Positions 28,469 to 52,001 of a stretch of DNA of 53,447 nt are shown here, one piece after another. The position numbers and the translations under genes were made by a program. The notes under the pieces were generated by a model. The model was not told where the DNA came from, did no database searches, and saw nothing but the letters and a program-made list of their open reading frames with translations. This stretch comes from an uncultured Gammaproteobacteria bacterium (GTDB lineage: Bacteria > Patescibacteriota > Patescibacteriia > Magasanikbacterales > GWA2-37-8), in contig CAYIHE010000001.1 in the NCBI GenBank assembly GCA_964363145.1, positions 1 to 53,447 on the forward strand, in the 5' to 3' direction. Every line of letters starts with the position of its first letter. The first letter of the stretch is position 1.

Positions 28469-28474
28469 ATTTTT

Positions 28475-28563: not shown

Positions 28564-28569
28564 GATTAT

Positions 28570-30840: not shown

Positions 30841-30842
30841 AT

Positions 30843-32758: not shown

Positions 32759-32765
32759 ATTTCAT

Positions 32766-32843: not shown

Positions 32844-32852
32844 ACCGTATCT

Positions 32853-35207: not shown

Positions 35208-35258
35208 ATGTATATAATTAGTGGTAAGATAAAAAAAGTATACACTAAATTTTGATTT

Positions 35259-36188
35259 ATGGCAATTACTAAAATAACCCCGCAACCGCAAGCGAAAAAA
35301 TTGGCAAAAAAAATTGGCTTAACCGCGGCTTTGTATTTGAAGCGCGAGGATCTGCATCCGCACGGATCGCACAAAGGCCGGTCTATTCCGCCGATGGTTG
35401 ACCATTATGTCAACGAAGGCGCTAGTAATTTTTGTATTTCATCATCGGGAAATGCAGCCTTGGCCGCTATTTATGCTATTCAAAAACATAAATCTTGCGC
35501 TTTACGCATCTTTGTCGGCAAACATATTCAACAGGATAAGTTGGAACGGTTACGACAAGTAATTTACAAAAATCAGAATATAACTATTGAGCAAGTGGAT
35601 GCTCCAAAACGAATGGCGTTTCAAATGGATAAAAATGGCTCTGTGCCGATTTTGCCGCCGCAAAATCGAGCATCCGCGATTTCGCGCCAAAGCGAAATCG
35701 GGACAAAAAATCTACGCCAGTCAACCGATGACACTGCGCTTGTTGGCTACCAAACGCTGGCCGATGAGCTGGCGGAAATAAAAAATCTTGCCGCTGTTTT
35801 TATTCCAACATCCAGCGGCACCACGGCGCAAGGTCTATATAATGGCTTTCAGAAACACAACATCAATCCGCAAATTCATATTATACAAACCCCTTTTTGC
35901 CACCCAATGGTTGCATCCCCGGCTCCAATCGAACCTTCGGTGGCAAGCGCGATTGTGGATAAGGTGGGCTATCGCAAAGAAGCGGTCCAAAAAGCCATAC
36001 GAGACAGTGGGGGCAAAGGATGGATAGCAACTGATAATGATATCGCGGAAACAAAATGCCAAATTAAAGAAACTGAAAATCTGGACATATCCGCCAACAG
36101 CGCCCTGTCGGTAGCCGGATTAAAACTTGCATTAAAAAATAATTGGCATTTTAGCGGGCCAGTGGTTTGTATTCTTACCGGACGTTAA
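35259..36188 (+). CDS. Fold-type II PLP-dependent enzyme (Thr synthase/Cys synthase superfamily) carrying a hairpin-module insert
   Basis: 309 aa. LKREDLHPHGSHKGR (PLP-lysine block) and SSSGNAALAAIYA. Insert at 35646-35706. Confidence 0.65.
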   Translation: MAITKITPQPQAKKLAKKIGLTAALYLKREDLHPHGSHKGRSIPPMVDHYVNEGASNFCISSSGNAALAAIYAIQKHKSCALRIFVGKHIQQDKLERLRQVIYKNQNITIEQVDAPKRMAFQMDKNGSVPILPPQNRASAISRQSEIGTKNLRQSTDDTALVGYQTLADELAEIKNLAAVFIPTSSGTTAQGLYNGFQKHNINPQIHIIQTPFCHPMVASPAPIEPSVASAIVDKVGYRKEAVQKAIRDSGGKGWIATDNDIAETKCQIKETENLDISANSALSVAGLKLALKNNWHFSGPVVCILTGR

Positions 36189-38228: not shown

Positions 38229-38241
38229 AAACCGCCGCTAG

Positions 38242-39312
38242 CTATTTTAATTTAAACCCAAAAAACTTGTTTTTTATCACCCAAGCCAAAACTTTCAATG
38301 GATGTTTTTTTATGGCCGTACGAGCCGTGCAAATCATCCAAACCGGCACTTTACCAGCATCTACCTGCCGCCTAACTTCTTCGGCTTCCTCGCTACACCA
38401 AAATTTCTCTACGCCTGACATTTCTCTGATATTGCCCATGCGAATATTATGCACTACCGAAGGATAAATTACGCCGTTCGGATCTAAAAAGAAAAAGTCG
38501 CGCGCCGGCGCGTTGGATACCACCGGGTTGCGGCTGGTAATAAATGTATACATGCCAAAAGCAAAATAAGCGCGCGCCCAACGTTTTAGATTCCAGCCGC
38601 GCAATTCCGATTTGATGATATAAGTATATTGTTCCCGTAATAATTCACGCAGAGGACCGCTGACATGATTGCTGTCTTCTGTTGCCAAAGCCATTCCTTC
38701 GGTTAAAGACTCATCGCCCAAACCCTGAAAATCCGTGTTGGTTTTTCCGCCAAAATAAAACTCCGAACTCTGCGCGAAACTATGAGTGAATTGCGCGCCC
38801 AGCCGGCGAGACAAATCATAAACTTTTTTCAAGTGTTTAATATTTTTTTCGGTAATGGTAAAACCCAAACGCAAATTAGTCATTCCTAACTCTTTTAGCT
38901 GGCGCAGAGTTTCCATATCTTTGCTAAACCCTCCCGGAATGCCGCGCATCTCGTCGTGCATTTCGTCCATGCCGTCTATGGATATGGCTACGCCGATATC
39001 GGGTTTTATTTTTAAGATTTTTTTCATCTGCTTTACGACCAAATCTGTGAGAAAACCATTGGTGGAAATGACAATACGGGCTTTAGGACAGGCCTTGACT
39101 ACAACGGCGATTATCTCTGGCAAATCAGGACGCAAAAACGGCTCGCCTCCGGAGATATTTATATCCCGCAACGTAGATGGAAGTTTGGCAAATTCAGCCA
39201 CCGGCAACTCCGGAAAGCCCTTTATTTTCCAAATGTCGCACATGACACAGCGTGCGTTGCAATTGTAAGTAATAGCCAGCACGCAATCTGTTGGTAATCG
39301 GCAATTTTTCAT
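38242..39312 (-). CDS. Radical SAM protein
   Basis: 356 aa. AITYNCNARCVMCDIW (CX3CX2C) and ISGGEPFLRPD. Confidence 0.85.
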   Translation of the reverse strand: MKNCRLPTDCVLAITYNCNARCVMCDIWKIKGFPELPVAEFAKLPSTLRDINISGGEPFLRPDLPEIIAVVVKACPKARIVISTNGFLTDLVVKQMKKILKIKPDIGVAISIDGMDEMHDEMRGIPGGFSKDMETLRQLKELGMTNLRLGFTITEKNIKHLKKVYDLSRRLGAQFTHSFAQSSEFYFGGKTNTDFQGLGDESLTEGMALATEDSNHVSGPLRELLREQYTYIIKSELRGWNLKRWARAYFAFGMYTFITSRNPVVSNAPARDFFFLDPNGVIYPSVVHNIRMGNIREMSGVEKFWCSEEAEEVRRQVDAGKVPVWMICTARTAIKKHPLKVLAWVIKNKFFGFKLK

Positions 39313-39352
39313 AAGTTTATTTTATCATTAAATCGTGTTATACTCAAATAAT

Positions 39353-40735
39353 ATGACAAGCTACCTTAAACGCTTTTCTTTCAGCGCCTTGCTAATAATT
39401 GGGACGGCTATTTTTACTTTTGTAAACGCGAATACAGCATTGGACGTCCTGGCGCTTTTGCTGATTGTTTTTATTATTTTACAAAAAGTTTTCGGCGAAT
39501 ATTTTGTTTTAATTCTTTTGGCCGCGCGTCCGACGCTGGATTTTTGGCGTGATTTTAGTCTTTTTTCTTTCCGGTCGTTTGAATTTAACATCAATTCGGC
39601 TTTATCCGTATTTTTACTAATTTGGTCAATATATTTTTTTGTAAAAAACCGCGCTTATTTCAAACAAATACCCGCCAAAATTCCCTGGCTGATATTTATG
39701 GGCTGGATTTCTCTTACCGCCATTTACAGCTATGATTTAATTTCTACCATCCGAGAAACGGCCAAAGCCGCCAACCTGTTTGCCTTATTCGGCATTTGCT
39801 TCATAATGTCGATAAAAAACAAAGAAATTTTTGGCAAAAAATTTTTAAAAAGCATGATTGCGGGCGCGATTTTGCCAATGCTTGTGGCCGCTTATCAATT
39901 TTTATCCCGTACCGGCATGGACATAGACGACATTGGTAACAGAATTTACGGCACTTTCGCCCACCCTAATATTTTAGCAACCTATGCCTTGCTTTTATTA
40001 ATAGTTGTAGTGAATGAGTTGTTTATCGCTAAAAATACAACGTTGAAATCCCCGCTTGGGCGGGGTAGGGGTGGGTTGGCCGTGATTTTATTTTTACTGG
40101 CCATAATCGCCTTTACCTACACTCGTATTGCCTGGATCGGCGCGGGAATGCTATTTGTAATTTTGGGCTTGGTTTATTACAGAAAAATTCTGGTGGTGAT
40201 TTTATCCGCCGCGGCTTTATTTTTCGCGCTATTTTATCCGTTAAATAATTATTTAATCCAAAATTATAATATTAATTTACAATCCTCCGGATTAATTTCC
40301 CGCTTAACTTCCCGCAATGAAGATTCTGATTCAATAAAATGGCGCGTAAATTTGGCAAATAAAGTTATGCCTCTTTTCCGCCAACGCTGGCTATTGGGTT
40401 ATGGCTACGGCTCGTTTCCCAAAGTTTGGGACGACAATAAAGACGTGGGGAATATCTGGGATACCACTTCCGAAGCGCATAATGATTATATAAAAGTTGC
40501 TTTTGAATCCGGCGTTGTCGGTTTGCTTTTATTTTTATTTATTTTTGCCAGTTTACTTTACCGACAAATAAATTTTGCCGTAAAAAACCATTGGACAAAC
40601 GTTGTGTTCATAGCCAGTATTGGAATTTATCTGATCTTGAGTCTTTCCGATAATATGTTGCATCACACGCCAATGATTTGGTGGCTGTGGGCGGTGTGGG
40701 GGGTGTGGAGCTACAAGTTGAAAGTTGAAAGTTGA
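39353..40735 (+). CDS. O-antigen ligase (Wzy_C) family membrane protein
   Basis: About 460 aa polytopic protein. SEAHNDYIKVAFESGVVGLLLF motif. ATG at 39353 preferred over the alternative start at 39335. Confidence 0.8.
   Translation: MTSYLKRFSFSALLIIGTAIFTFVNANTALDVLALLLIVFIILQKVFGEYFVLILLAARPTLDFWRDFSLFSFRSFEFNINSALSVFLLIWSIYFFVKNRAYFKQIPAKIPWLIFMGWISLTAIYSYDLISTIRETAKAANLFALFGICFIMSIKNKEIFGKKFLKSMIAGAILPMLVAAYQFLSRTGMDIDDIGNRIYGTFAHPNILATYALLLLIVVVNELFIAKNTTLKSPLGRGRGGLAVILFLLAIIAFTYTRIAWIGAGMLFVILGLVYYRKILVVILSAAALFFALFYPLNNYLIQNYNINLQSSGLISRLTSRNEDSDSIKWRVNLANKVMPLFRQRWLLGYGYGSFPKVWDDNKDVGNIWDTTSEAHNDYIKVAFESGVVGLLLFLFIFASLLYRQINFAVKNHWTNVVFIASIGIYLILSLSDNMLHHTPMIWWLWAVWGVWSYKLKVES
40049..40076. 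repeat. Hairpin module C inside the O-antigen ligase CDS
   Basis: Identical 28-mer to 6122-6149. Read as SPLGRGRGG. Confidence 0.85.
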
Positions 40736-41158: not shown

Positions 41159-41953
41159 CTACTCCATGTTTCGCCCGTCGTACGTGCACTTGAACATGTC
41201 GTAGTAAACCGCGTGATAGAAGGTGCTTTCGACACCGCTCCACTCGATCTGACAGTCAATGGCGACACGATTGCCACCACTCGAGTAACATTCGACCGAG
41301 CAGCTAGAGGCTGGCGCCGCCTTCCACGGATCACCGGCCAGACCGTCGTACAGACTTTCCGGAGGGTAAGTCCCCAACGGAGGTGCTGGCTCGGCGATCT
41401 CGAATCCGCCCCAGAACACGCAGTTCACGGCTGACTCCGACGGCCAAATTTGCATGCCACCGCAATCGGCCAGGGTGTACACACACGTACCTCCCGAGCA
41501 CGAATCGTTCGTCCAGCCCCACCCGTCGTCGCAGTCCGCATCATCGTCGCAGGCCGGACAGACCGCGTCCGGCGTGGCCGCGTCCACAGGGGTGGGCGGC
41601 GGGGTCGCATCGGGCGGCGAGGCATCCGGTGGCGGCACAGTGGCCGCGTCGGGCGTGGGCGGAACGGCGGCGTCCGGGCTCGGAACCGAAGCATCCACAG
41701 TGGGTGGAACGGCGGCGTCCGGGGTCTCGGGAACCGTCGCGTCCGGCGTGGCCGGGGTGGCCGCGTCGCACTCGGGCGTGTTGCCCGCGTCCGGCGTCGT
41801 GACCGGGACGGTCGCGTCGGGCTCCATCGGCGACGGAGTCGCGTCGACCTCCTCGGTCGGCGGCTCGGCGTCGGGCAGATCCTGCAGCGGCAGGTCCTCC
41901 ATGAGGCAACCCGTCGCGCCAAGAACACACATCAAGAACAGACTCTTCATCAT
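41159..41953 (-). CDS. High-GC Pro/Thr/Asp/Ala-repeat, Cys-rich putative lipoprotein
   Basis: Start at MMKSLFLMCVLGATGC (signal peptide plus lipobox-like Cys). SD GAGGAG at 41962-41967. PDA(A/T)VPP repeats. CPACDDDADCDDGWGWTNDSCSGGTC block. Confidence 0.7.
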   Translation of the reverse strand: MMKSLFLMCVLGATGCLMEDLPLQDLPDAEPPTEEVDATPSPMEPDATVPVTTPDAGNTPECDAATPATPDATVPETPDAAVPPTVDASVPSPDAAVPPTPDAATVPPPDASPPDATPPPTPVDAATPDAVCPACDDDADCDDGWGWTNDSCSGGTCVYTLADCGGMQIWPSESAVNCVFWGGFEIAEPAPPLGTYPPESLYDGLAGDPWKAAPASSCSVECYSSGGNRVAIDCQIEWSGVESTFYHAVYYDMFKCTYDGRNME

Positions 41954-42046
41954 TGTCTCATCTCCTCTGGCCGCATCCGTGCGACCATATCTCGAACGTG
42001 ATCTCCACTCCAACCAACGGCATCATTGCCATGGTTGTAGTTTTTT

Positions 42047-42120
42047 TGTCATCCTGAACATAGTGAAGGATCTCTGTCCGTTTGATTGGACAAAATTTCT
42101 TCGCTTTGTTCAGAATGACA
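42047..42120. repeat. Family B element inside the high-GC island
   Basis: TGTCATCCTGAACATAGTGAAGGATCTCTGTCC...TTCGCTTTGTTCAGAATGACA. AT-rich like the host. Confidence 0.85.
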
Positions 42121-42174
42121 AGGTAAATTCATTTTAAGGTGCTTTTTCGATCTGTTTCATATTCCTATTTCTAC

Positions 42175-42212
42175 CAGACAGAGATCCCTCACCTGGATGG
42201 TTCGGGATGACA
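42175..42212. repeat. Half family-B element
   Basis: CAGACAGAGATCCCTCACCTGGATGGTTCGGGATGACA. Confidence 0.65.
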
Positions 42213-42302
42213 ATCGTGAGTGGAATAAGGATATGAATGAATCGCCCTGCACCAGCCGACTCCTTTTGGGAATCAACTGGCGCAGGGAACTGCTGTGGGG
42301 AC

Positions 42303-42998
42303 TTACCTCCCCCACAAGTAGGACAGGTTGAAGCCGCTTACGGCGGCGTACTCTTGGGGAGTGTCCCCGTGAGCGCGCGAACCGCGCACACCGTAGGAAA
42401 CATACCCCTCAAGCAACATCCCGGCCTTTTCTACCGCTACCCGGAAAGACGGGCCGTAGAACGTCTCGTTCCAGGTCTCGCGTGGATGCGAGTCCTGGTT
42501 GATGGTTCCGAGCAGGTCGAAACCGACCCCGAAAGCCACGATCTTCGTATCCGGCGTTGCGTAGCACATGACGGCTACGGAGCTGGACACGGAGATGGTG
42601 TTGAAGCGGCCATCGCCCAGTCCGGCCCGGGCGCGAATGCGCCACGGCGAGGACTTGAAGCCGATCTGACCGACGAGGTCGGCTGTGATCGCCAGACCGC
42701 CACTTGGGTCTCCAAGCAGGTAGGCGTAGCCGAAGCCGATGCCTCCACGAAGGGAGGTGTCGGACTTCTCCTCCACCACGACGAGCCGGGTGGGGGCCGC
42801 CAGCGCCACCTTCTTCTTGAAGAATGGGACCGGGATGAGAACCTCGATGGTGAGGGTCTCACCGGCCTTGGGGGCCGAGAAGACCATTGGCTTGTCGGCG
42901 TCTTCGGCCGACACGGTGACGGTCTTGTCCTCGGCGCGAGCGTTCGTCACGCCTACGGCACAGAACATCAGAAACACCATCTGCTTCGCATTCTTCAT
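42303..42998 (-). CDS. High-GC secreted protein with an outer-membrane beta-barrel-like pattern
   Basis: 231 aa. Signal peptide MKNAKQMVFLMFCAVGVTNARA. About 8 alternating-hydrophobic strands (GIGFGYAYLLG, KIVAFGVGFDLLG, YAAVSGFNLSYLW). SD GAGGAG at 43007-43012. Confidence 0.65.
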   Translation of the reverse strand: MKNAKQMVFLMFCAVGVTNARAEDKTVTVSAEDADKPMVFSAPKAGETLTIEVLIPVPFFKKKVALAAPTRLVVVEEKSDTSLRGGIGFGYAYLLGDPSGGLAITADLVGQIGFKSSPWRIRARAGLGDGRFNTISVSSSVAVMCYATPDTKIVAFGVGFDLLGTINQDSHPRETWNETFYGPSFRVAVEKAGMLLEGYVSYGVRGSRAHGDTPQEYAAVSGFNLSYLWGR

Positions 42999-43226
42999 CT
43001 TCTCGTCTCCTCTGGTCCCGCTCCTGCGGGGCCGTTTGTGAATTGTAAAAAACGATCTTCTTCATCCCCCCACCACTATTAGTGAGGAGACCAAGTGATC
43101 GTGCGAGTGGTTTAGACTCGCACGGGGTAGGCATGATCCCGATTCGCCGGTTGGCAAATGGGACACATGTGTTGGTCGGTGAGGGACCTGCCATGCACCG
43201 GTCGCCCTAGGCGACCTGGTGCGGGG

Positions 43227-43784
43227 CTACTCCTCGCCGAAATACACGGGCTCCAGCCTCGGCACGACTACGATCGTGCCGAGCTGGGTTGAGACAGGCG
43301 CGGCCCTGATGGCCGCAACCTCCTGCTCGACGGCCTCGACCCTTTGCCGAACGTTCTGCGCGTACTTGCGCAGATCGCGGCGGTTGGCCTTCTTGGCGTC
43401 GTCCAGATCGACCAAGTCGGCCTTGGTCTTGAGATCGCTCAGGTCGGCCTTGCTGGCCTGCAGCTTCTTGATCTCGCTGAGGAGGCCTGCGGCGGACTGG
43501 CGGTCCGTCACTGCGTCGGCCTCCAAGACCCCAGTCCTTTTCTCGACCTGGAGTATGCGAACCTGCAGCATGGTGATGTCCGCGCCGGTCTGGGCCGTCT
43601 GGGCCTTGACCGTGGCCGCGCTGTTGTCGCGCGACACCTTGCCTTGGCAAGTGACAGCCAGGAGAACCAGTGTCGCGGCCAAGATCATGGCCATGAAAAC
43701 CGCAAATGCTACCGGCTTGCGCTGTGGCCGCTTCGTCACCGCCGTCGACTCGTCCGGATTTCCACCGTTCTGCTGTCCGCTCAT
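43227..43784 (-). CDS. High-GC single-pass membrane protein with a coiled-coil ectodomain
   Basis: 185 aa. TM segment VAFAVFMAMILAATLVLLAV, then heptad-like LQVRILQVEKR...LLSEIKKLQASKADLSDLK. SD GAGGAG at 43792-43797. Confidence 0.65.
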   Translation of the reverse strand: MSGQQNGGNPDESTAVTKRPQRKPVAFAVFMAMILAATLVLLAVTCQGKVSRDNSAATVKAQTAQTGADITMLQVRILQVEKRTGVLEADAVTDRQSAAGLLSEIKKLQASKADLSDLKTKADLVDLDDAKKANRRDLRKYAQNVRQRVEAVEQEVAAIRAAPVSTQLGTIVVVPRLEPVYFGEE

Positions 43785-44181: not shown

Positions 44182-47100
44182 TTAACGTCCGGTTATATCT
44201 TTTAGCTTATTTAAGTCCTCCCACTGCTCATCGGACAATTTAATAGCTTCTTGGTGTGTAAATTTTCTAGTTACACCATATTGGTCCGTCATAAGCAATT
44301 CGCCTTTTTCGTTAGTGTTAAAAATCCAATCTTTATCATGAATAAAAATATCTTCACCTTCCACCGGATCCCAAATTCTAGCCGCATGTCCACCGTTGGT
44401 CAAAACTGGTTCTCGGAGCACTTCCCTACCTTCAATCATAACTAAATCAATTACTTTGTCTTCTTTTTTAAACATAACGTCGCGAAAATCAGACATCCAA
44501 TCTGGTTTATATGTGTTAAATTTCTCTTCCACGGCTAAAACTTTTTCTATTATTCTTAAATTTTCACTACCTGTAATCTCGTGGCTAGAAAGCTTCTCAA
44601 ATATAAGATCCGGCTGATTATTATACAAGAAATCAATTTTCTTTTGCAAAATTATTTCCGAATCACCCCGGAAAACAAATGAGTTGTTAAATTTTTCTAT
44701 GGTCGCGTCTACCATTTTATCGTAAGTATTTATAAATTCTCTAGGACTGGAACCACGCTCACGCAAAAATTCATTGGCAGAAACACGAACATCCTCGGCT
44801 GGCGCCGCCGCTGTTTCTATTCCCGCGGAACCTTTTGCGCCAACTGACACAGCCGATGTTTTGGTTTCCACCGCCGAAGTTTTGGCAGATATAGTATTCA
44901 AAGTTTTTTCCACACGCGTTGGAGCCGGCGCGTTGATTTTTGCTTCCGGCGGATAATCGGTCATTAGTTCCGCTCCCGATTTGGCAGACACTTCTTTGGC
45001 TGCTTCCAGCGGACTAGTTCTTTCCAAAGTGGTATGTTCGGACAAAACAAATTTGGGTTCTGTTGCAACAGGCTCGGCGCCGGGCAATACGGCCGCTGTT
45101 TCGTGATGAATACCCGTGCTCATTTGATCTACCGTTACAGACCCGCTGCCGCTTAAAATTGGCTGGTTATTTTCCAAACCAAAGTAGTTGACTTCTCCAC
45201 GAACATGATTATCAATCCCGGGTTTGGCATCAGTAGCATCAACTTCCAATCCGGCGTTGGCCAAATCCGTGCTTTCCCTGCCTTGCATAGCTCTAAACAA
45301 CCCTCTTACCATTTTGTTATCTTCTTCGTCATACTGCCGGGCAAATTTCAAGTACTGGGCAGGCGTATCTTTATCAATATACTTGGACAAATAACTTAAA
45401 TGCCGCTCGCTAAAATCCTGGCTCTGCAAATATTTGGCGGCTGATTCCGGCCCGCCTTTTTTTAATAATTCTTCAAAAATCACCTGCCGGCGTTCTCCTC
45501 CGCCTTCGTCTAAAGTATCTATGTGACCCTTAATAAAACTATAATGTGAACGAACGCCGCCTCCAACTTGGCTGGAGTTTAAAATATTCTGAACTGAATC
45601 CGGATTATTTAATTCCGGATATTCTTGTGCCAAATTACTAAGCGCGGCCGCGGCTTCCGGACTTAATTTATGTTCCAGAGCAAATTGATCCACGGAAAAA
45701 CTAGACGCCACTTCTACCGGAACAACCGAGGAGCTAACTTCACCAGACGCCATTTGTTTCGGTTCCAGTCCCTCTTCACCGGCCGGATGCGAGGATTGTT
45801 TATGATCTCCGCGCAAATACTCTTGTAATTTGGCGGTACCATAACCCAGCCCGGCGCCAGCCACCGCGCCAACTACCCCATACCCAACCGCGCGCCACCA
45901 GCCGGGTTTGCGCAAAATTCTTTGTTTGATATTTTGCTGTTCAGTGGTTAAGCTTTCTAAATCTTTATTTAAACCGGTTAAAAGATTTTCCACGGCACTA
46001 TGGCGCAAATTTTCCGGAGCCGGCACTTCATCTAATTGCGGAGCTTCGTTTAAATAAATATTTATCTGCAAAGATTCCACTCGACGCAAAACATTTTGAG
46101 CGCGTAATTTTAAATTTATATCGCCTTCCAACATTCCCAAAGTTAAAGGCACACGCAAATCTTTGGCGCTTTCTGCCAATTCCGCCATATTTTCCGGCTT
46201 GAATTCGCCCGCATTTTCTGTTTTTTGCCTTTGCGCCCAAGTTTCTACCAATTTTTCCGCTTTAGCGATATTGTTTTTAAATTCTTTTTCAAATTGCATT
46301 TCTCTGGCTTTGCGATCTTTGAGGTGGCCATATTTTACTCCCAAGTAACCGCCGGCCGCAGCGCCCAACAAGGCCCGCAGTTCCGGCGCCGCGGCCAAAG
46401 CCGCGCCAATGCTGGCGCCAGCTGCCACTGAACCTAAAACCGAAGCGATTTTTCTGGCACTGCTTTCTTTTTTAACCGGATCTTTATCAGCGTCTTTAAC
46501 AAACTTGCTGAATTCTTGGCCATAAATAGTCAGGTTTTGCAATTTTTTAACAATTTTCGGATCGCGATTAATAAGCTCCTGGATTAAAGCTTCCAAATCT
46601 TTGTCTTCGTATAATTTTTTGATTAAAACTTCAACTCTTTCGGTTTGACTGCGTTTTATTTCTATTGCCGATTCTTCGCCAGAGGATATTTTTACTTCGG
46701 CAAATTCTTTGTCAATTTGGCCGGCGACTTCTTCCAAAGCAACTTCGGCGTTGGCTTTTACTTTGGTTATATCTTCATTTTTTACTGCCGAAGCGCTGGC
46801 GTCGCGCAAACTCTGGCTTAACATGGCGGAAAGCTGTTCCAGCATTTGCGGACCTTCTTCGCCGGTAAATTGAGCCAGCAAACTATCGCGCAAGTTTAAA
46901 GATTTTTCTTCTTTTATTTTTTCTTTGCCAACGGAAATTTCCTGATTGGCGTTTTCTTTTCTTTTATTAAACCAGCCCCTAATGCCATCCACTTTGTTTT
47001 TTAGTCCACGCAACAATCCGGTGGCGCCGCCTACAGCGGCGCCACGAACCGCGCTACTGGCGCCGCCAGTGGACAGCAACAATCCCACACTGCCGCCCAA

Positions 47101-49017
47101 AACCGCGAATGGCAAAATGTTTATTGCCGCCAATTTTAAATGCGCGGCCGGATTTTCTTTAAATTTATCCCACAAATTTATGTTTTTATTCAGCCAATTG
47201 CGCGACATCTGTTCCACCCATTTTTTTATCATCTCAAACGAATGTTTGTGCAAATTTTCCACCCATGCTTTTTTAAATTCATCCGGCGTGTAATCAAAAC
47301 CGGCCAGAGTTTTTTTCAGAGCGGCTTCGTCCAAATCTTTTCTGGAAAAAATATCTTTTAACAAAATTCCGGCAACATCAATATTACCCAAAATAATTTC
47401 ATTAACCACTTCCTGCAATTTTTTCTCGCCAATGATTTCCAGCAGATCGTTTTCCTTGATATCCACAACGCGCTTTTTACGTTCCGAAGATTTTGGAGCT
47501 ACGGGCGGAGCCGTTGGTTCCGGTGTTTCTTGTGTTTCCGGCGGTTCCGGTTGTTCCGGTGGTTGCGGCGCTTCGGCGCGCGGCGGCGGCGGATTTTCAA
47601 GCCACGCTTTCAAGGCATCTTCATCAGCTTTTCTTTTGGTGGCAATGGCTTCTTCTTTTTCCTTTTCCACAGCTTTTTTTATATTGTCTTGGATATCTTT
47701 ACTTACGCCATCAATTTCCGCCTGAATAAACTTTGCTTCCTCATCAAACTCCTTGCCTTTATTATGCCAGATTTCTGGGATCATTCGCACTTTTAGGCCT
47801 TCCATAGTATCGTAAAATTCTTTGACAATGTCGGCATACTTGCCTTCTGATTTTTCCCTATATAATTCTAACAGCGCGTCTAATGATGCGTGTAATGATT
47901 TTAATGTTAAAACTCTTTCCGCCGCATCTCTGTTTTGTGTTTCTAAATCATCGGCAATCGGCTCCGGCGGTTTTGGCGATTTTGGCGATTTTGGTTCGGC
48001 ATGCGGCTTTGCTTTTTTTGGCAAAATACCGCCATGTTCAAAAATTTCTTTTATGTCCGGTTCTAAATTTGCGACTAACTCACTAAAATTCTTATCAAAA
48101 TTATCCATGCTGGCATTAAAAATTTCTAGGTCATCATGCATTTTATCTGCGGTATTCAAATCATCCAGCAAGGATGTCATTTGTTCGTCATATTTGCTGT
48201 ACAAATTTCTTTTTCTTTGCTCCTTTTTATCTGCTTCTTTAATAATATTCGTCAGCAATAAAAAATTTTGATCGTGTTTATCAAATAAACGTTTGCGCTG
48301 TTTTCGTTGTTCTTTTTTTTCTTTTTCAGCATCAACGGACTGGAGCTCTGCCGGTTTTACCGGAGATTTGGCGGCGGATTCATCTTGCTTATCTTCGTCA
48401 ATCATGCGATTGAGTATGAGATGTAAATCTCCCAAGCGATTTTTAAAATCATCACGCGCTTCATCCATTTTTTTATAGTCTTTATTTTTCAGCAAACTTT
48501 TCATTTTATCTAAAATTTTGCCGAGTTCAGCCAGCTCGCTTTCGTCAACATCCATTTCATGTTTATCCGCACGCGCCTTAAATTCTTCTAATTCTTTTTC
48601 GGCGTCAAAGTAATGATTCTCAAATTTTTTAAATTCAATATCTTCCGTCGCGGCTATAACTTCCAGCTCTTTAACATCTTTTTGTTTTTGTTCTTCTGCC
48701 GCTTCCGGCACTTCGGTTTTAAGTTCTTCTATATCATATTTTATTTTCCCCATTTCTTTTGTTACTTTAACTAACTTACCGGCAAATACTGACGGATCGT
48801 TTATAAATTTTTTAAGACTTCCATTTTCGTTATTAATCTCAAAAATAAAAGCTTCGATTGTTTTTATCAAATTATCAACTTTTTTTCCTTTTTTATCCAA
48901 ACCGACTAAACCCACTTGTAAACTATTTAATTCATCCAGTTTTTTTTGTATGGATCCTTCTCTCTCTGCCTTGGTGGTAATGGAAAAAGGAGATTTATCC
49001 GGATTTTTTTTGGCCAT
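44182..49017 (-). CDS. Giant 1611-aa coiled-coil / Gly-Ala-zipper membrane-associated protein, function unknown
   Basis: Single uninterrupted ORF with host-like composition. K/E-rich helical N-terminal ~560 aa. Two Pro-rich linkers. Three G/A-rich hydrophobic hairpins. No catalytic motif recognised. Confidence 0.85.
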   Translation of the reverse strand: MAKKNPDKSPFSITTKAEREGSIQKKLDELNSLQVGLVGLDKKGKKVDNLIKTIEAFIFEINNENGSLKKFINDPSVFAGKLVKVTKEMGKIKYDIEELKTEVPEAAEEQKQKDVKELEVIAATEDIEFKKFENHYFDAEKELEEFKARADKHEMDVDESELAELGKILDKMKSLLKNKDYKKMDEARDDFKNRLGDLHLILNRMIDEDKQDESAAKSPVKPAELQSVDAEKEKKEQRKQRKRLFDKHDQNFLLLTNIIKEADKKEQRKRNLYSKYDEQMTSLLDDLNTADKMHDDLEIFNASMDNFDKNFSELVANLEPDIKEIFEHGGILPKKAKPHAEPKSPKSPKPPEPIADDLETQNRDAAERVLTLKSLHASLDALLELYREKSEGKYADIVKEFYDTMEGLKVRMIPEIWHNKGKEFDEEAKFIQAEIDGVSKDIQDNIKKAVEKEKEEAIATKRKADEDALKAWLENPPPPRAEAPQPPEQPEPPETQETPEPTAPPVAPKSSERKKRVVDIKENDLLEIIGEKKLQEVVNEIILGNIDVAGILLKDIFSRKDLDEAALKKTLAGFDYTPDEFKKAWVENLHKHSFEMIKKWVEQMSRNWLNKNINLWDKFKENPAAHLKLAAINILPFAVLGGSVGLLLSTGGASSAVRGAAVGGATGLLRGLKNKVDGIRGWFNKRKENANQEISVGKEKIKEEKSLNLRDSLLAQFTGEEGPQMLEQLSAMLSQSLRDASASAVKNEDITKVKANAEVALEEVAGQIDKEFAEVKISSGEESAIEIKRSQTERVEVLIKKLYEDKDLEALIQELINRDPKIVKKLQNLTIYGQEFSKFVKDADKDPVKKESSARKIASVLGSVAAGASIGAALAAAPELRALLGAAAGGYLGVKYGHLKDRKAREMQFEKEFKNNIAKAEKLVETWAQRQKTENAGEFKPENMAELAESAKDLRVPLTLGMLEGDINLKLRAQNVLRRVESLQINIYLNEAPQLDEVPAPENLRHSAVENLLTGLNKDLESLTTEQQNIKQRILRKPGWWRAVGYGVVGAVAGAGLGYGTAKLQEYLRGDHKQSSHPAGEEGLEPKQMASGEVSSSVVPVEVASSFSVDQFALEHKLSPEAAAALSNLAQEYPELNNPDSVQNILNSSQVGGGVRSHYSFIKGHIDTLDEGGGERRQVIFEELLKKGGPESAAKYLQSQDFSERHLSYLSKYIDKDTPAQYLKFARQYDEEDNKMVRGLFRAMQGRESTDLANAGLEVDATDAKPGIDNHVRGEVNYFGLENNQPILSGSGSVTVDQMSTGIHHETAAVLPGAEPVATEPKFVLSEHTTLERTSPLEAAKEVSAKSGAELMTDYPPEAKINAPAPTRVEKTLNTISAKTSAVETKTSAVSVGAKGSAGIETAAAPAEDVRVSANEFLRERGSSPREFINTYDKMVDATIEKFNNSFVFRGDSEIILQKKIDFLYNNQPDLIFEKLSSHEITGSENLRIIEKVLAVEEKFNTYKPDWMSDFRDVMFKKEDKVIDLVMIEGREVLREPVLTNGGHAARIWDPVEGEDIFIHDKDWIFNTNEKGELLMTDQYGVTRKFTHQEAIKLSDEQWEDLNKLKDITGR

Positions 49018-49022: not shown

Positions 49023-49352
49023 TTATTTAGAAGCCAGCAATTGCTTGGTTTTTTCGGTAAATTCAACTAAAACTTCTTTTACTTTTTCTTCAAAATTCGG
49101 CGCGGAATCATGCCAAAAGTTTTTCCATTCTTCTGGAGAAGTATTTTCGTTGTTTGACAATTTTACAAACTTGTCGGTTTGTTTATCGTTTAACTGGGGC
49201 AGAAGTTTTAACCCCAAGCGCATTTCCACTTGCGCCATTATTTGCGGCACATAAATTTTTTTCTGCTCCTCGGCCAAGCTGATTTTGTTTTCCTCCAATA
49301 AAGCCAGGACGTATTCAATTAGGAAATCAAATTGGTGTTTAGTTTGCGACAT
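49023..49352 (-). CDS. Hypothetical 109-aa protein
   Basis: ORF 5 nt upstream of the giant gene, on the same strand. No motif. Confidence 0.55.
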   Translation of the reverse strand: MSQTKHQFDFLIEYVLALLEENKISLAEEQKKIYVPQIMAQVEMRLGLKLLPQLNDKQTDKFVKLSNNENTSPEEWKNFWHDSAPNFEEKVKEVLVEFTEKTKQLLASK

Positions 49353-49372: not shown

Positions 49373-49987
49373 TTAAATTGAAATTCCAAAAATGTGTTTT
49401 TTGCGCCGCGCCACCCAGAGAGAGGAAATAAAAAATCCGACCAGCAGTCCAACTGCGAAATTTACCGGTAAATTAGGGCGCGCCTGCCATTTGGCCACCA
49501 ATGGCGTGCTGACTATTTTTATGGCCACATCCCCTCCCAGATATTCCCAGCCCTGCGCGGACACGGTTTGCGTTACGGCGCCGGACAAACTAACGGCTTC
49601 TTCTTTACTCTCCGCGTAAACTTTTATGCTCATTAGACCGGTGCCGTAAATCATAGCGGCCTGCACGTCTTTAGCCCATTTTTTTCTTTGCTGGCGATCG
49701 GGGAGTTTTTTCCACGCGTCTTTGTTAAAAGAAACAACTGTGGAATTTAAAGTTTTGTTAAAAAAATCCGTAGTTTTCATGATTTGCGCCAAATTAACGC
49801 CAACTCGCTCCGCGGAACGCGCTTGTGTATATGGATCAACGCCGGTTTTATCGCGGGAAATTATTAACACCTGACTAGTAGCGCTATATTGTTTAGGAAA
49901 AAACCAGCTAATGCCGACGGATAAAAAAGCTAAAACCAAAGCCCATGCCACTATTAATTTTATGTGTTTGAATAAAAGACGAAACAT
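49373..49987 (-). CDS. Wzz-like polysaccharide chain-length determinant family protein
   Basis: 204 aa. N-terminal TM plus PKQYSATSQVLI. C-terminal Pro-rich stretch (PLVAKWQARPNLP) before a second TM. Confidence 0.55.
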   Translation of the reverse strand: MFRLLFKHIKLIVAWALVLAFLSVGISWFFPKQYSATSQVLIISRDKTGVDPYTQARSAERVGVNLAQIMKTTDFFNKTLNSTVVSFNKDAWKKLPDRQQRKKWAKDVQAAMIYGTGLMSIKVYAESKEEAVSLSGAVTQTVSAQGWEYLGGDVAIKIVSTPLVAKWQARPNLPVNFAVGLLVGFFISSLWVARRKKHIFGISI

Positions 49988-49993: not shown

Positions 49994-51037
49994 TTATTTT
50001 GTTTGTATTATTTTAACTTTTAAATCCAACTGTTTTCCTCCGCGCAAAACTTTGGCGTCCACGCTCTGGCTATCATTGATAATATACCATAAATTGTCCG
50101 GCTCCACAACTCGGCCGTTGACCTGCGTAATCACATCTCCTTTGCGCAAAACACTAGCAGGCGACCAAACATTGGCGACATAAAATCCTTTTATTTTTTC
50201 TTTGCCAAAAACTATTGGCTGTTCGTCGCTAAACCAGCCATCAGCGCCAAGCGATGGATATGAAACTGTCTTTTGGCTTAAAACTTTCGGCAAAATTCTG
50301 GCTATATAAAAACTGGGCAAAAGCAAATTTTTTTCCGTGATAAAACCAGCCACTCGCCCCTGATTATTTACAGCGACCCTGCCAGCGCCAAACAATCCGC
50401 TTAAAGAATAAAACTGCAAAGGCGCTAAATCAAAATGCGGAATTGAGCCGCTTAAAATCGGATACAGAATAAAACCGTGATACCAATATAAATCCTGGAA
50501 AACAAATAAATCATCTGAAACCAAAACACTGTCGATAAAACTGACTACTTTAAATTGCCGATCTTGAATTTTTAAAAAAAGAATGTTGGAATATTTATCA
50601 AATATGGCGCTTTCCGGCTGGGATACTTTATTGTCGCCGGTCACCACCTGCAAACTTTTGTAGCCGCCATCGTAGCCGGGCAGATACATGGCCAGCCAGC
50701 CATCCGAACTGACCATCACCCCGTCGCCAATTTTTTTATTTAAATAACTGACGCCGCCGGCGCTAATTGAACCTTTATAAATAGACACGATGCGCGTGGA
50801 AATTTCTTCGCGCACATGATTTTCCAGTTGTACGCGAGACATGCTAGGACGAGTATAACTGGTTATCCATGCTTCACCCTCGGCAAATCTAGGCCAAATC
50901 CATCCAAGCATCATGCTGGCGCCGCTCATTCCCGCAATTAAACCAAAAACTACCGCCACGCCCAAAAATTTTAACCGGCGCAATCGACGATGATTTTCTA
51001 TACTACATGATTTTGGAGGAAGGTGGGGAGGGAGCAT
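49994..51037 (-). CDS. Membrane-anchored HtrA-like protein with a PDZ domain, catalytic triad apparently lost
   Basis: 347 aa. GDGVMVSSDGWLAMYLPG replaces the expected ...TNxHV block. FGAGRVAVNNQGRVAGFI replaces GNSGGP. C-terminal PDZ-like block LRKGDVITQVNGRVV. Confidence 0.6.
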   Translation of the reverse strand: MLPPHLPPKSCSIENHRRLRRLKFLGVAVVFGLIAGMSGASMMLGWIWPRFAEGEAWITSYTRPSMSRVQLENHVREEISTRIVSIYKGSISAGGVSYLNKKIGDGVMVSSDGWLAMYLPGYDGGYKSLQVVTGDNKVSQPESAIFDKYSNILFLKIQDRQFKVVSFIDSVLVSDDLFVFQDLYWYHGFILYPILSGSIPHFDLAPLQFYSLSGLFGAGRVAVNNQGRVAGFITEKNLLLPSFYIARILPKVLSQKTVSYPSLGADGWFSDEQPIVFGKEKIKGFYVANVWSPASVLRKGDVITQVNGRVVEPDNLWYIINDSQSVDAKVLRGGKQLDLKVKIIQTK

Positions 51038-51209: not shown

Positions 51210-52001
51210 CTACTTCCAACGAACAATAAAAAATAAAAATAAAATAAATAAAACCGAATTTATTCCCAAAAACCAAATTTGCTTGCGCCAATCTATCCCC
51301 TCTTTTGATAAATTGAATCTGACCATTAACCAAAGCACATACCAGCACCAAATTAAAATAAGACTACTGACCAGATATCCCAAAGGCAAAAGCTCCACGG
51401 CCCAAATCAGTTCCAAATTTAATATTGCCCAAAAACCGGTCCATAGCCAAAAAGTTTTGTTTTTTTGCGCGCCGTATTCAAGCCACCACCAGCCGGCAAT
51501 AATCGCGGAAAAAACCGAGGCCACCGCCAGCCAAACCAATGGACTGACACCGGGCATAATCTGGAAAGAATTAATCGCGCCCACGCCTTGAAAAATTCCC
51601 GCCAAACCGATAATGCTCATCATAAACCGCCAGCGCAAATGCGGTTTTAAAAATGTGGCCAAGCTGACGCTGGATGACGGCAATAACCAAAAACTGAAAA
51701 AAGAAAAAAAAGAAAAAAACATCCCGAACAAATACCACGCGGTTTTCCATTCTATAAAAAGCAAAAATGCCAGCGCCCCGATTGTCATTATCGCCAGCGA
51801 AGCTAGATGCTTCCATCGGCTCATTTCGGCCGGATAATAAACCATCCACATAAATGCCGCCCAAAGGGCCAACCGGAATGCCAGCCAAACGCCCACCCAC
51901 CACCAAGAATTAAGGTGCCCCACCCACCACAGCATAACCAAACTAATCAAAAAATCAAGCACGGCCGCTAGTTTGGGATGGAAGGAAATTGATTTGAGCA
52001 T
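51210..52001 (-). CDS. Trp-rich polytopic membrane protein
   Basis: 263 aa, about 8 TM, many W residues (WWVGHLNSWWWVGVW). First gene of the minus-strand operon that ends in the giant gene. Confidence 0.65.
   Translation of the reverse strand: MLKSISFHPKLAAVLDFLISLVMLWWVGHLNSWWWVGVWLAFRLALWAAFMWMVYYPAEMSRWKHLASLAIMTIGALAFLLFIEWKTAWYLFGMFFSFFSFFSFWLLPSSSVSLATFLKPHLRWRFMMSIIGLAGIFQGVGAINSFQIMPGVSPLVWLAVASVFSAIIAGWWWLEYGAQKNKTFWLWTGFWAILNLELIWAVELLPLGYLVSSLILIWCWYVLWLMVRFNLSKEGIDWRKQIWFLGINSVLFILFLFFIVRWK

What the first reader, a model, noticed from the sequence alone, without database searches (positions are those of the whole stretch)
44182..49017. 1611-aa giant protein with coiled-coil N-terminal half, Pro-rich linkers and three Gly/Ala-zipper hydrophobic hairpins
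This is the largest ORF in the window. It has host-like composition, no signal peptide and no catalytic motif I recognise. Its architecture by eye is:
- About 560 K/E-rich helical residues.
- Pro-rich linker 1: PKSPKSPKPPEP.
- Pro-rich linker 2: PPPPRAEAPQPPEQPEPPETQETPEPTAPPVAP (DNA about 47500-47590).
- Three G/A-rich hydrophobic segments: LPFAVLGGSVGLLLSTGGASSAVRGAAVGGATGLL (about 46990-47130), IASVLGSVAAGASIGAALAAAPELRALLGAAAGGYLGV (about 46330-46440) and WWRAVGYGVVGAVAGAGLGYG (about 45840-45905).
- A C-terminal region of about 550 aa, including a globular-looking last ~230 aa.

The glycine-zipper hairpins resemble re-entrant or pore-forming segments. Giant surface or membrane proteins are thought to mediate attachment in episymbiotic small-genome bacteria (general knowledge). 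That makes this a candidate host-interaction or membrane-remodelling factor.
Basis: partly seen in the sequence, partly recalled or inferred. Interest (0 to 1): 0.65.

Follow-up and report, generated by a model that had tools for sequence, protein, structure and literature searches.

The report
Giant membrane-anchored protein of groundwater Patescibacteria
The 1611-residue gene is real and belongs to an unnamed family of giant, fast-changing, probably membrane-anchored proteins that close a conserved cell-envelope operon in some ultra-small (CPR) bacteria; its function is unknown and no known sequence family or solved or viral predicted fold matches it.

Summary
The ORF (44182-49017, minus strand, 1611 aa, no Cys) is intact in the window and in a second assembly from the same well.

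It has no Pfam, PHROG, PDB-sequence or Foldseek match. An exhaustive HMMER search found 64 cluster representatives, mostly 1000-3100 aa "hypothetical proteins" of Patescibacteria/Parcubacteria.

The protein has a variable N-terminal part and three conserved modules:
- **A (aa 510-1075):** all-helical. It carries all three Gly/Ala hydrophobic segments at conserved positions.
- **B (aa 1090-1330).**
- **C (aa 1405-1611).**

In 11 related loci the giant gene follows the same upstream genes: a 6-TM protein, an HtrA-like/PDZ protein, a Wzz/CpsC-like protein and, in six of them, DUF5663 (the 6-TM gene lies beyond the end of L004). Those partners are 50-83% identical in the nine closer loci. The giant's modules are 28-62% identical or swapped out.

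My best reading is an envelope scaffold or tether. Two glycine-zipper helical hairpins and one further helix would anchor it, with the N-terminal ~1000 aa inside the cell and modules B and C probably outside. Topology and function are inferred, not shown.

Immediately downstream lies a conserved three-gene cassette with strikingly foreign codon usage (GC3 0.76-0.84). I could not explain it.

The parts
44182..49017 (-). Giant ORF, 1611 aa, no Cys, no signal peptide
   Evidence: The same ORF is present in the independent assembly L001.
47491..49017 (-). Variable N-terminal region (aa 1-509). It is K/E-rich and presumably helical, and contains two Pro-rich linkers (aa 342-353 and 476-508).
   Evidence: It is only 29-33% identical in the closest orthologues. 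Relatives carry PP2C or WipA-like phosphatase domains; the PP2C-like stretch read in P0029 lies N-terminal to its module A.
45793..47490 (-). Module A (aa 510-1075): a conserved all-helical module containing all three Gly/Ala hydrophobic segments
   Evidence: 35 representatives carry it. Alignment A2. AF2 pLDDT 69, pTM 0.65. No PDB match by sequence or fold.
47002..47142 (-). Hydrophobic segment 1 (aa 626-672): a glycine-zipper helix-turn-helix, with the break at T650-G659
46336..46449 (-). Hydrophobic segment 2 (aa 857-894): a glycine-zipper helix-break-helix. The break is at A876-A877, before Pro878. R881, G889 and G893 are invariant or nearly invariant.
   Evidence: There is a weak NCBIfam YiaD glycine-zipper hit.
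45838..45900 (-). Hydrophobic segment 3 (aa 1040-1060): a single Gly-zipper helix. It is a candidate signal-anchor, preceded by a basic stretch.
45028..45750 (-). Module B (aa 1090-1330): a conserved alpha+beta domain with the motifs HSHH, GGERRQVIFEELLK, FRAMQG..TDLANAGL and YFGLENGKPILSG
   Evidence: 29 representatives. Alignment A3. AF2 pLDDT about 90 for aa 1105-1301. No PDB or BFVD match.
44185..44805 (-). Module C (aa 1405-1611): a conserved alpha/beta C-terminal domain with the motif L.NGSHA.R.WD
   Evidence: 30 representatives. AF2 pLDDT about 85. No fold match.
49023..49352 (-). DUF5663 protein (109 aa, soluble, pI 5.4), 5 nt upstream of the giant gene
   Evidence: Found just upstream of the giant gene in six of the related loci (L002-L005, L009, L012), directly adjacent or separated only by a 59-68 aa ORF.
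49373..49987 (-). Wzz/CpsC-like protein with 2 TM helices (204 aa)
49994..51037 (-). Protein of 347 aa with an N-terminal TM helix and an HtrA-like C-terminal PDZ region
51210..52001 (-). Trp-rich membrane protein with 6 TM helices (263 aa); first gene of the conserved block
41159..43784 (-). Downstream cassette of three GC3-rich genes: a TM + coiled-coil protein; a signal-peptide, beta-rich protein; and a lipobox-like, Cys-rich protein. It is syntenic with the giant gene in L002 and L006.

Best explanation
The gene encodes a lineage-specific giant scaffold or tether anchored in the membrane. It is the last gene of a conserved envelope operon found in Parcubacteria/Magasanikbacteria-type Patescibacteria. 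The operon order is 6-TM protein, HtrA-like/PDZ protein, Wzz/CpsC-like protein, DUF5663, giant.

**Proposed working (inferred).**
- The K/E-rich N-terminal ~620 aa and the long helical bundles of module A stay in the cytoplasm.
- Two conserved glycine-zipper helix-turn-helix hairpins (aa ~626-672 and 857-894) dip into the cytoplasmic membrane. Through their Gly faces they probably pack against each other or against the operon's membrane partners.
- The third Gly-zipper helix (aa 1040-1060) acts as an N-in/C-out anchor.
- That places a flexible linker and modules B and C (about 550 aa) outside the membrane. There they would contact the organism's own envelope or a host surface.
- The outer and N-terminal parts evolve fast and are exchanged as modules. 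The membrane core and the operon partners are kept.

**Shown:** a real gene; a conserved family; three modules; conserved positions of the zipper segments; conserved synteny; mosaic evolution.

**Inferred:** membrane insertion, topology, oligomerisation and the envelope or host-contact role.
For: **Family and modules.**
- 64 representatives were found, and modules A, B and C are separately conserved.

**Hydrophobic segments.**
- They lie at conserved positions. G+A is 43-46% there, against 18% for module A overall.
- Glycine-zipper motifs are present in 19-21 of 24 members per segment.
- AF2 places a helix-break-helix exactly at segments 1 and 2 and a single helix at segment 3. It models the flanking helical bundles at pLDDT about 90.
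- Kyte-Doolittle 19-residue maxima are 1.97 and 1.79 for segments 1 and 2, comparable with the lower end (1.74-2.7) of the TM helices of neighbouring membrane proteins.

**Topology.**
- Both flanks of segment 1 are net basic, as expected for a hairpin. Those of segment 2 are basic in this protein but close to neutral on the family average.
- Segment 3 has a mean of 4.1 K+R upstream against 1.5 downstream across 24 homologues, the positive-inside pattern for N-in/C-out.
- A complete stand-alone 357-aa relative (P0064) has a K-rich N-terminus, one Gly-zipper TM helix, a Pro-rich spacer and module B. Its upstream gene is unrelated and ends in a stop codon.

**Synteny.**
- The conserved upstream block is present in all 11 related loci: 6-TM in 10 (the L004 locus starts inside the next gene), HtrA-like/PDZ in 11, Wzz-like in 10, and DUF5663 in 6.
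- In the three loci that show the region upstream of the block (L002, L003, L005), it lies next to infC (IF3), with rpmI-rplT and/or smpB alongside.

**Evolutionary rate.**
- Partners are 50-83% identical in the nine closer loci.
- The giant's N-terminal region is 29-33% identical, and module C 28-36%.
- Module B is absent from the closest A-type orthologue (P0002).
- Module A is replaced by another weakly hydrophobic module in five orthologues.
Against: - No dedicated TM predictor was available.
- A simple-sum Hessa-scale score (values recalled from memory) is only marginal for segments 1 and 2 (+2.8 and +2.6 kcal/mol). It is poor for segment 3 (+7.3; Kyte-Doolittle 1.14).
- AF2 confidence is below 50 in segments 1 and 2 and about 50-59 in segment 3.
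- In orthologues with the alternative middle module, the last hydrophobic stretch before module B contains K and R. There, B and C may not cross the membrane.
- There is no expression, localisation or interaction evidence of any kind.
- The k-mer-based homologue searches failed. The accessory-domain repertoire is therefore known from only 25 members.
Confidence: 0.4

Rival explanations
1. A cytoplasmic-face scaffold or membrane-shaping protein. The whole polypeptide stays inside the cell. The hairpins are monotopic wedges, like those of reticulons or caveolin, that tether a giant helical scaffold to the inner face of the membrane and may curve it. Modules B and C would then be cytoplasmic.
For: - Segment lengths of 38-46 aa are too long for one TM helix and short for two. 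The second arm of segment 2 is only about 13-15 hydrophobic residues.
- Segment 3 is barely hydrophobic.
- Orthologues with the alternative module have charged residues in their last hydrophobic stretch.
- There is no signal peptide.
- The PP2C domains of relatives are usually cytoplasmic enzymes (general knowledge).
Against: - The positive-inside asymmetry at segment 3 is conserved across the family.
- The stand-alone P0064 has a TM helix, a Pro-rich spacer and module B, which looks like a type II exported protein.
- Mosaic replacement of B and C is more typical of exposed regions.
Confidence: 0.25
2. A delivered effector or translocon. The protein would be exported, with the small helical DUF5663 protein acting as chaperone or targeting factor. 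Its glycine-zipper hairpins would insert into the membrane of a host bacterium to form a pore or anchor. This would resemble glycine-zipper toxins (TelE, Tse4, CdzC/D), T3SS translocators or Inc proteins.
For: - Glycine zippers are a known signature of membrane-permeabilising effectors (PMC12955049 and the references it summarises).
- A small acidic helical protein, and in three loci a further 59-68 aa coiled-coil ORF, lies directly upstream. This resembles the chaperone or adaptor genes of effectors.
- One of 25 relatives carries a WipA-like phosphatase domain and 2 of 25 carry PP2C domains; WipA is a Legionella effector (general knowledge).
- The protein evolves fast and as a mosaic.
Against: - No secretion-system gene is linked. 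A VirD4-like gene near one orthologue (L003) is absent from all the other loci.
- No trafficking domain such as LXG or PAAR was found, and no immunity-like gene was identified.
- The zippers are internal, inside a 550-aa conserved module, not in a polymorphic C-terminal toxin tip.
- The locus is one conserved locus per contig, next to housekeeping genes, and is not mobile.
Confidence: 0.17
3. Not a membrane protein at all. The Gly/Ala-rich segments would be buried, tightly packed core helices, or flexible low-complexity linkers, of a soluble giant helical protein.
For: Hydrophobicity is marginal. The segments contain 2-3.5 charged residues on average. No TM predictor was run.
Against: - AF2 does not pack them into the confident bundles; pLDDT is below 50 there while the flanks are about 90.
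- The Kyte-Doolittle maxima of segments 1 and 2 exceed the usual 1.6 threshold.
- Four of the five operon partners and downstream neighbours examined have predicted TM helices; DUF5663 does not.
Confidence: 0.1
4. A phage tape-measure protein, a mobile-element protein, or an assembly fusion of several genes.
For: Tape-measure proteins are long, helical and often have Gly-rich hydrophobic segments (general knowledge).
Against: - No PHROG hit for the giant, and none better than E = 0.003 among its neighbours. No BFVD fold hit.
- The neighbours are envelope and housekeeping genes.
- The intact ORF is identical in two assemblies.
- Orthologues of the same size sit at the same locus in 11 genomes.
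Confidence: 0.02

Closest known systems
Glycine-zipper 2-TM hairpin proteins (SlyB/Pcp, YMGG, Rick_17kDa_Anti, YiaD N-terminal region)
   Same: - GxxxGxxxG-rich segments of about 40 aa that form a helical hairpin in a membrane.
- There are weak, composition-level hits to YiaD and, far from significance, to a Legionella OmpA-family outer-membrane protein and to SlyB (E = 0.18 and 7.1).
   Different: - Those are small lipoproteins of Gram-negative outer membranes, with a signal peptide and a lipobox.
- Here the hairpins are internal to a 1611-aa protein without a signal peptide.
- No family HMM reaches threshold.
Glycine-zipper membrane-permeabilising effectors (T7SS LXG toxins TelE and LXG-T2, T6SS Tse4 and Tde1, CdzC/D)
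   Same: - Glycine-zipper motifs, which those effectors need to insert into membranes (PMC12955049).
- Small helical proteins encoded just upstream.
   Different: - No LXG, PAAR or other trafficking domain.
- The zippers are not C-terminal.
- No immunity gene or secretion system is linked.
- The locus is conserved and chromosomal next to housekeeping genes.
Giant membrane or surface proteins of CPR bacteria (for example the ten longest proteins of Vampirococcus lugosii, PMC8080830)
   Same: - Proteins well over 1000 aa (1392-4163 aa in Vampirococcus), predicted to be membrane-localised, in a reduced-genome CPR bacterium.
- Proposed to mediate recognition of and attachment to hosts.
   Different: - Those proteins carry recognisable adhesion or interaction domains such as WD40, PKD, integrin, fibronectin and DUF11.
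- This family has none, and its three modules match no Pfam family or PDB fold.
Proteins with bilobed or wedge hydrophobic hairpins (chlamydial Inc proteins, reticulon-homology domains)
   Same: Hydrophobic stretches of about 38-46 aa, too long for one TM helix, flanked on both sides by large hydrophilic regions.
   Different: - No sequence or fold similarity was detected.
- No T3SS is present.
- The hairpins are about 185 aa apart rather than about 60 aa.
- The resemblance is architectural only, and I recalled it from general knowledge.

Membership tests
Pfam/NCBIfam glycine-zipper families (Gly-zipper_Omp, Gly-zipper_YMGG, Rick_17kDa_Anti, YiaD_Gzip_OmpA) | Family HMM match at or above the curated cut-off | tested here: not met
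   No Pfam family at E <= 1. NCBIfam YiaD_Gzip_OmpA scores 18.8 bits against a cut-off of 175.
Pfam/NCBIfam glycine-zipper families | (G/A/S)xxxGxxxG motifs inside a hydrophobic segment of about 40 aa | tested here: met
   8 motifs, all inside the three segments, against 1.7 expected. Present in 19-21 of 24 homologues per segment.
Pfam/NCBIfam glycine-zipper families | Small lipoprotein architecture (signal peptide plus lipobox) | tested here: not met
   The N-terminus is hydrophilic and the protein has no Cys at all.
Polymorphic glycine-zipper toxins (LXG/T7SS, T6SS, Cdz) | N-terminal trafficking domain (LXG, PAAR, Rhs and the like) | tested here: not met
   No Pfam or NCBIfam hit in aa 1-509.
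Polymorphic glycine-zipper toxins (LXG/T7SS, T6SS, Cdz) | Linked secretion-system genes and a cognate immunity gene | tested here: inconclusive
   None was recognised among the annotated ORFs of the window or in the 11 related loci. A VirD4-like gene occurs only in L003. An unrecognisable immunity gene cannot be excluded.
Polymorphic glycine-zipper toxins (LXG/T7SS, T6SS, Cdz) | Membrane depolarisation or toxicity | not testable with these tools
   This needs expression and permeability assays.
Phage tape-measure proteins | PHROG or BFVD similarity and phage tail-gene neighbours | tested here: not met
   No PHROG hit. No BFVD fold hit for modules B-C at E < 0.1. The neighbours are envelope and housekeeping genes.
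Giant CPR adhesins (Vampirococcus-type) | Recognisable adhesion or interaction domains | tested here: not met
   No Pfam domain in this protein. Only PP2C, WipA_Phos and KIF21A_4th were found in 25 relatives.
Giant CPR adhesins (Vampirococcus-type) | Surface exposure | not testable with these tools
   The only evidence is indirect: flank charges and the architecture of P0064.
The unnamed A/B/C giant-protein family defined here | Modules A, B and C, and a position after the 6-TM/PDZ/Wzz-like/DUF5663 block | tested here: met

The most novel reading that the evidence does not exclude
The giant protein, its DUF5663 partner and the adjacent cassette would together form a host-contact apparatus. The cassette has three genes with GC3 of 0.76-0.84: a TM + coiled-coil protein, an OMP-like beta-rich protein whose orthologues end in a beta-signal-like ...SYLF or ...SLLF, and a lipobox-bearing Cys-rich protein. 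On this reading:
- the giant bridges the epibiont's membrane to the host;
- its glycine-zipper hairpins engage a membrane;
- the cassette proteins are derived from, or codon-matched to, a high-GC diderm host and act in or on the host's outer membrane.
Probability: 0.06. Interest if true: 0.85.

Novelty: new variant of a known kind. Interest (0 to 1): 0.45.

Why it matters
Most Patescibacteria are uncultured, and how they hold on to and exploit hosts is largely unknown. In the few cultured Saccharibacteria, epibiotic growth depends on envelope machines and adhesins (PMC10633639).

This locus defines a conserved five-gene envelope operon in a different, uncultured branch, the Parcubacteria/Magasanikbacteria type. 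Its terminal gene is a giant, fast-evolving, modular protein. Three of its modules match no Pfam family, no PDB sequence profile and no PDB fold.

If the proposed topology is right, it is a physical link between the cytoplasm and the cell surface. It would also be a concrete target for localisation, AF-multimer and metaproteomic tests in Hainich groundwater samples.

On present evidence it remains one more conserved hypothetical protein. The interest is moderate and rests on context rather than on a demonstrated mechanism.

Tried and rejected
1. **Family and sequence searches on the giant.** Pfam, PHROG and PDB-sequence searches gave nothing; NCBIfam gave only a weak, sub-threshold YiaD glycine-zipper hit.
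2. **k-mer-indexed homologue search.** It failed three times. The full protein found only itself. The C-terminal 275 aa and the module A profile found nothing. Low-complexity words probably filled the candidate list.
3. **PDB profile searches with modules A and B-C.** Module A gave only composition-level hits with E > 0.1 (an OmpA-family outer-membrane protein, SlyB, prion hydrophobic core); the B-C profile gave none.
4. **Foldseek.** Both AF2 models against the PDB, and the B-C model against BFVD, gave nothing below E = 0.1.
5. **Internal repeats.** A self-BLAST found none.
6. **Genome scan with the module A alignment.** The B-C alignment worked.
7. **T4SS link.** I rejected it because the VirD4-like gene occurs in one locus only.
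8. **Locating the WipA-like domain.** I could not find it among the nine relatives scanned individually or by a motif regex.
9. **P0064 as a frameshift fragment.** I first suspected this, then rejected it. The upstream ORF is an unrelated thioredoxin-like protein that ends in a stop codon.
10. **GC-rich island as an ncRNA or assembly chimera.** I rejected both. There is no Rfam or tRNA hit. The island contains three coherent genes. Three assemblies agree on it, and related genomes carry a homologous cassette.
11. **Literature.** No paper mentions DUF5663, or glycine zippers in Patescibacteria.
Full report
**1. Observation**

The window holds one ORF of 1611 aa on the minus strand, 44182-49017, with an ATG start. 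It is the largest by far; the next is 774 aa.

- **Composition.** Its base composition matches the rest of the window, with GC about 0.37-0.43 and GC3 0.38. It has no cysteine.
- **N-terminus.** It is hydrophilic, and the first ~600 residues are 24-34% K+E.
- **Quoted peptides.** The two Pro-rich linkers are aa 342-353 and 476-508. The three Gly/Ala hydrophobic segments are aa 635-669, 857-894 and 1040-1060.
- **Coiled coil.** A crude heptad scan marks only aa 45-109 and 280-327 within the N-terminal half (plus aa 1005-1036 in module A). "Coiled-coil half" is therefore an unverified label for what is certainly a charged, Pro/Gly-poor and presumably helical region.
- **Glycine zippers.** Motifs of the (G/A/S)xxxGxxxG type occur 8 times, against 1.7 +/- 1.4 in shuffles. 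All eight fall inside the three segments.
- **Independent assemblies.** A second assembly from the same groundwater well (Hainich H43, 0.1 um fraction; L001) carries the same ORF. It differs by five SNPs in 12.5 kb, four in this gene and one non-synonymous. A third assembly (L014) confirms the DNA just downstream.

The gene is real and is not an assembly fusion, as far as contig-level data can show.

**2. What it is related to**

Pfam, PHROGs and PDB sequence searches give nothing. The only hit is a far sub-threshold NCBIfam match of aa 853-911 to the YiaD glycine-zipper region.

The k-mer-indexed homologue search failed; it returned only the protein itself or nothing.

The exhaustive HMMER search with aa 510-1611 found 64 cluster representatives, 28 of them below E = 1e-30. 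Most are 1000-3100 aa long. The named ones are "hypothetical protein" from Patescibacteria or Parcubacteria MAGs.

Domain-wise phmmer and jackhmmer searches show three independently conserved modules:
- **A:** aa 510-1075, in 35 representatives.
- **B:** aa 1090-1330, in 29 representatives.
- **C:** aa 1405-1611, in 30 representatives.

The N-terminal ~500 aa are variable. Of 25 relatives scanned, 2 carry PP2C domains, 1 a WipA-like phosphatase domain and 1 a KIF21A-like domain. The PP2C-like stretch read in P0029 lies N-terminal to its module A.

**3. Anatomy**

*Module A.* The alignment of 24 sequences (A2) shows several conserved elements:
- an IIDIPE start motif;
- a conserved GYT..EF...W block;
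- the three hydrophobic segments at fixed positions, with invariant or near-invariant residues (D519, F581, G663, R881, G889, G893, G1050, G1054).

Segment lengths across the family are as follows:

| Segment | Mean length (aa) | Range (aa) |
|---|---|---|
| 1 | 46 | 42-56 |
| 2 | 38.5 | 34-44 |
| 3 | about 20 | 19-23 |

G+A is 43-46% in these segments, against 18% for the module as a whole.

The AF2 model of module A has mean pLDDT 69 and pTM 0.65 and is entirely helical. Its soluble bundles reach about pLDDT 90. It shows:
- a helix (aa 623-649), a break (T650-G659) and a helix (aa 660-704) at segment 1;
- a helix (aa 853-875), a break before P878 and a long helix (aa 878-933) at segment 2;
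- a single helix (aa 1040-1068) at segment 3.

Confidence in the hydrophobic parts themselves is low. It is below 50 for segments 1 and 2 and about 50-59 for segment 3.

*Modules B and C.* In the AF2 model of aa 1076-1611 (mean pLDDT 72):
- module B is an alpha+beta domain (aa ~1105-1301, pLDDT about 90);
- module C is an alpha/beta domain (aa ~1410-1605, pLDDT about 85);
- the linker between them is mostly not resolved by the model (pLDDT below 50).

Module B carries the conserved motifs HSHH, GGERRQVIFEELLK, FRAMQG..TDLANAGL and YFGLENGKPILSG.

*Fold searches.* Neither model has a Foldseek match in the PDB, where the best E-values are 0.23 and 1.8. The B-C model has none in BFVD, where the best E-value is 0.13. 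PDB profile searches are also empty apart from composition-level hits.

**4. Genomic context**

The giant gene is 5 nt downstream of a DUF5663 gene. Upstream of that, with gaps of 20 nt, 6 nt and about 170 nt, lie:
- a Wzz/CpsC-like protein with 2 TM helices (204 aa);
- a 347-aa protein with one TM helix and an HtrA-like PDZ region;
- a Trp-rich protein with 6 TM helices (263 aa).

The same upstream block precedes the giant gene in all 11 related loci examined (L002-L012). tblastn with the window's proteins found the HtrA-like/PDZ gene in all 11, the 6-TM gene in 10 (L004 starts inside the PDZ gene), the Wzz-like gene in 10 and DUF5663 in 6. In the three loci where the region upstream of the block is visible (L002, L003, L005), it lies next to infC (IF3), with rpmI-rplT and/or smpB alongside.

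These loci include Parcubacteria and Magasanikbacteria MAGs (taxonomy). A few TPA MAGs are labelled Gammaproteobacteria or Udaeobacter. Their gene order and 50-66% identical neighbours indicate that these labels are probably wrong.

Identities to the window's proteins:

| Protein or module | Identity |
|---|---|
| Upstream proteins (nine closer loci) | 50-83% |
| Giant, N-terminal region | 29-33% |
| Giant, module A | 27-61%, or not detectable |
| Giant, module B | 23-62% |
| Giant, module C | 28-36% |

The architecture is also mosaic:
- the window protein is N-A-B-C;
- its closest A-type orthologue, P0002, is N-A-(other)-C;
- five orthologues (L006, L007, L008, L010, L011) have a different, weakly hydrophobic middle module before B-C.

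**5. How it most likely works**

Taken together, the evidence points to a resident envelope component rather than a mobile toxin. The locus is conserved and chromosomal, the operon partners are membrane proteins, and there are no phage or secretion-system neighbours. The VirD4-like gene near L003 is unique to that locus.

*Membrane anchoring.*
- Segments 1 and 2 have Kyte-Doolittle maxima of 1.97 and 1.79 and hairpin length, so I read them as membrane-inserted glycine-zipper hairpins. The flanks of segment 1 are net basic on both sides across the family; those of segment 2 are basic in this protein but close to neutral on the family average.
- Segment 3 is preceded by a basic cluster. Across 24 homologues there are 4.1 K+R in the 15 residues before it and 1.5 after it. 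That is the positive-inside pattern for an N-in/C-out anchor.
- A complete 357-aa relative (P0064) has a K-rich N-terminus, one Gly-zipper TM helix, a Pro-rich spacer and module B. This is a TonB-like, type II layout. Its upstream gene is an unrelated thioredoxin-like ORF that ends in a stop codon, so P0064 is not a fragment.

*Model.* I therefore favour, at about 0.4:
- a cytoplasmic N-terminal ~1000 aa;
- two hairpins and one TM helix, probably packed through their Gly faces with each other or with the operon's membrane proteins;
- modules B and C outside the membrane, acting as a tether or scaffold at the envelope or at a host surface.

*Weak points.*
- The hydrophobicity is marginal. Simple-sum Hessa scores are +2.8, +2.6 and +7.3.
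- AF2 confidence in the segments is low.
- The alternative middle module of some orthologues has charged residues in its last hydrophobic stretch.

*Rivals, with my probabilities.*
- An entirely cytoplasmic-face scaffold with wedge hairpins (0.25).
- A delivered glycine-zipper effector or translocon, with DUF5663 as chaperone (0.17). Glycine-zipper toxins are well documented (PMC12955049).
- A soluble protein (0.1).
- A phage protein or an artefact (0.02).

**6. Comparison with known systems**

At the motif level the protein resembles glycine-zipper hairpin proteins. At the lifestyle level it resembles the giant membrane proteins proposed to mediate host attachment in CPR bacteria (PMC8080830).

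It fails the membership tests for the glycine-zipper Pfam and NCBIfam families, for LXG, T6SS and Cdz toxins, for tape-measure proteins and for adhesins with known domains (see the table of tests).

It is best described as an undescribed family: a new variant of the loosely defined kind "giant envelope proteins of CPR bacteria". For background, epibiotic growth of cultured Saccharibacteria needs specialised envelope machinery and adhesins (PMC10633639). Nothing in that paper, or elsewhere in the searchable literature, mentions DUF5663 or this family.

**7. Verdict**

Membrane association is likely, and a host-interaction or pore role is untested.
- The finding is moderately interesting. It is a conserved, lineage-specific giant protein with three modules that match no known family or PDB fold, in a conserved operon, but with no mechanism shown.

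The most unusual thing seen lies just outside the given coordinates. It is a three-gene cassette with GC3 of 0.76-0.84, in a genome whose other genes have GC3 of 0.38-0.52. The cassette is conserved at the same position in two other diverged genomes. I could not explain it.

Noticed in passing
window 41159-43784 (minus strand); also L002 13693-16155 and L006 10497-13031: Three genes directly downstream of the giant gene have GC 0.61-0.77 and GC3 0.76-0.84. All flanking genes have GC3 0.38-0.52.
- The first encodes a TM + coiled-coil protein.
- The second encodes a beta-rich protein with a signal peptide. It ends ...SYLWGR here, and its orthologues end in the OMP beta-signal-like ...SLLF or ...SYLF.
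- The third encodes a Cys-rich protein with a lipobox-like signal. Its L002 orthologue has a sub-threshold Disintegrin hit.

A homologous cassette with high GC3 (0.60-0.79) sits at the same place in two diverged genomes. The cassette proteins are only 26-63% identical between genomes, although the flanking genes are 64-83% identical. This is not a chimera, because three assemblies agree. The origin and the reason the high GC3 is maintained remain unexplained.
   Followed up: partly
window 49994-51037 (minus strand): This 347-aa operon partner has one TM helix and matches HtrA-family models only over its C-terminal PDZ part. By eye, the position of the GNSGG catalytic-serine motif reads LFGAG, which suggests an inactive HtrA-like pseudo-protease.
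   Followed up: no
L003 7789-7986, L004 2016-2195, L005 5333-5539: In three more distant orthologous loci, an extra 59-68 aa coiled-coil ORF lies between DUF5663 and the giant gene. It is absent from the window, where the gap is 5 nt. It may be a small adaptor or chaperone.
   Followed up: partly
L007, L008, L009, L011, L012 (genome contigs records): MAGs labelled "Candidatus Udaeobacter" or "uncultured Gammaproteobacteria" carry the same CPR-type operon, with neighbours 50-66% identical to the window's. The taxonomic labels of these TPA assemblies are probably wrong.
   Followed up: no
window 25837-40735: The surrounding region is rich in envelope genes:
- an LtaS-like sulfatase-domain protein (756 aa);
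- a Mur ligase;
- a GHL15 glycosyl-hydrolase-like protein with FG-GAP repeats;
- a radical SAM/SPASM enzyme;
- a Wzy_C (O-antigen ligase-like) protein.

The last four (Mur ligase, GHL15, radical SAM, Wzy_C) are syntenic with the giant locus in L002.
   Followed up: partly
window 45966, 45976, 45997, 46842 and 41246: Of the five SNPs between the window and the independent assembly L001, four lie in module A of the giant gene. Only one changes a residue (K to E, near aa 1018). The sample is too small to interpret.
   Followed up: partly
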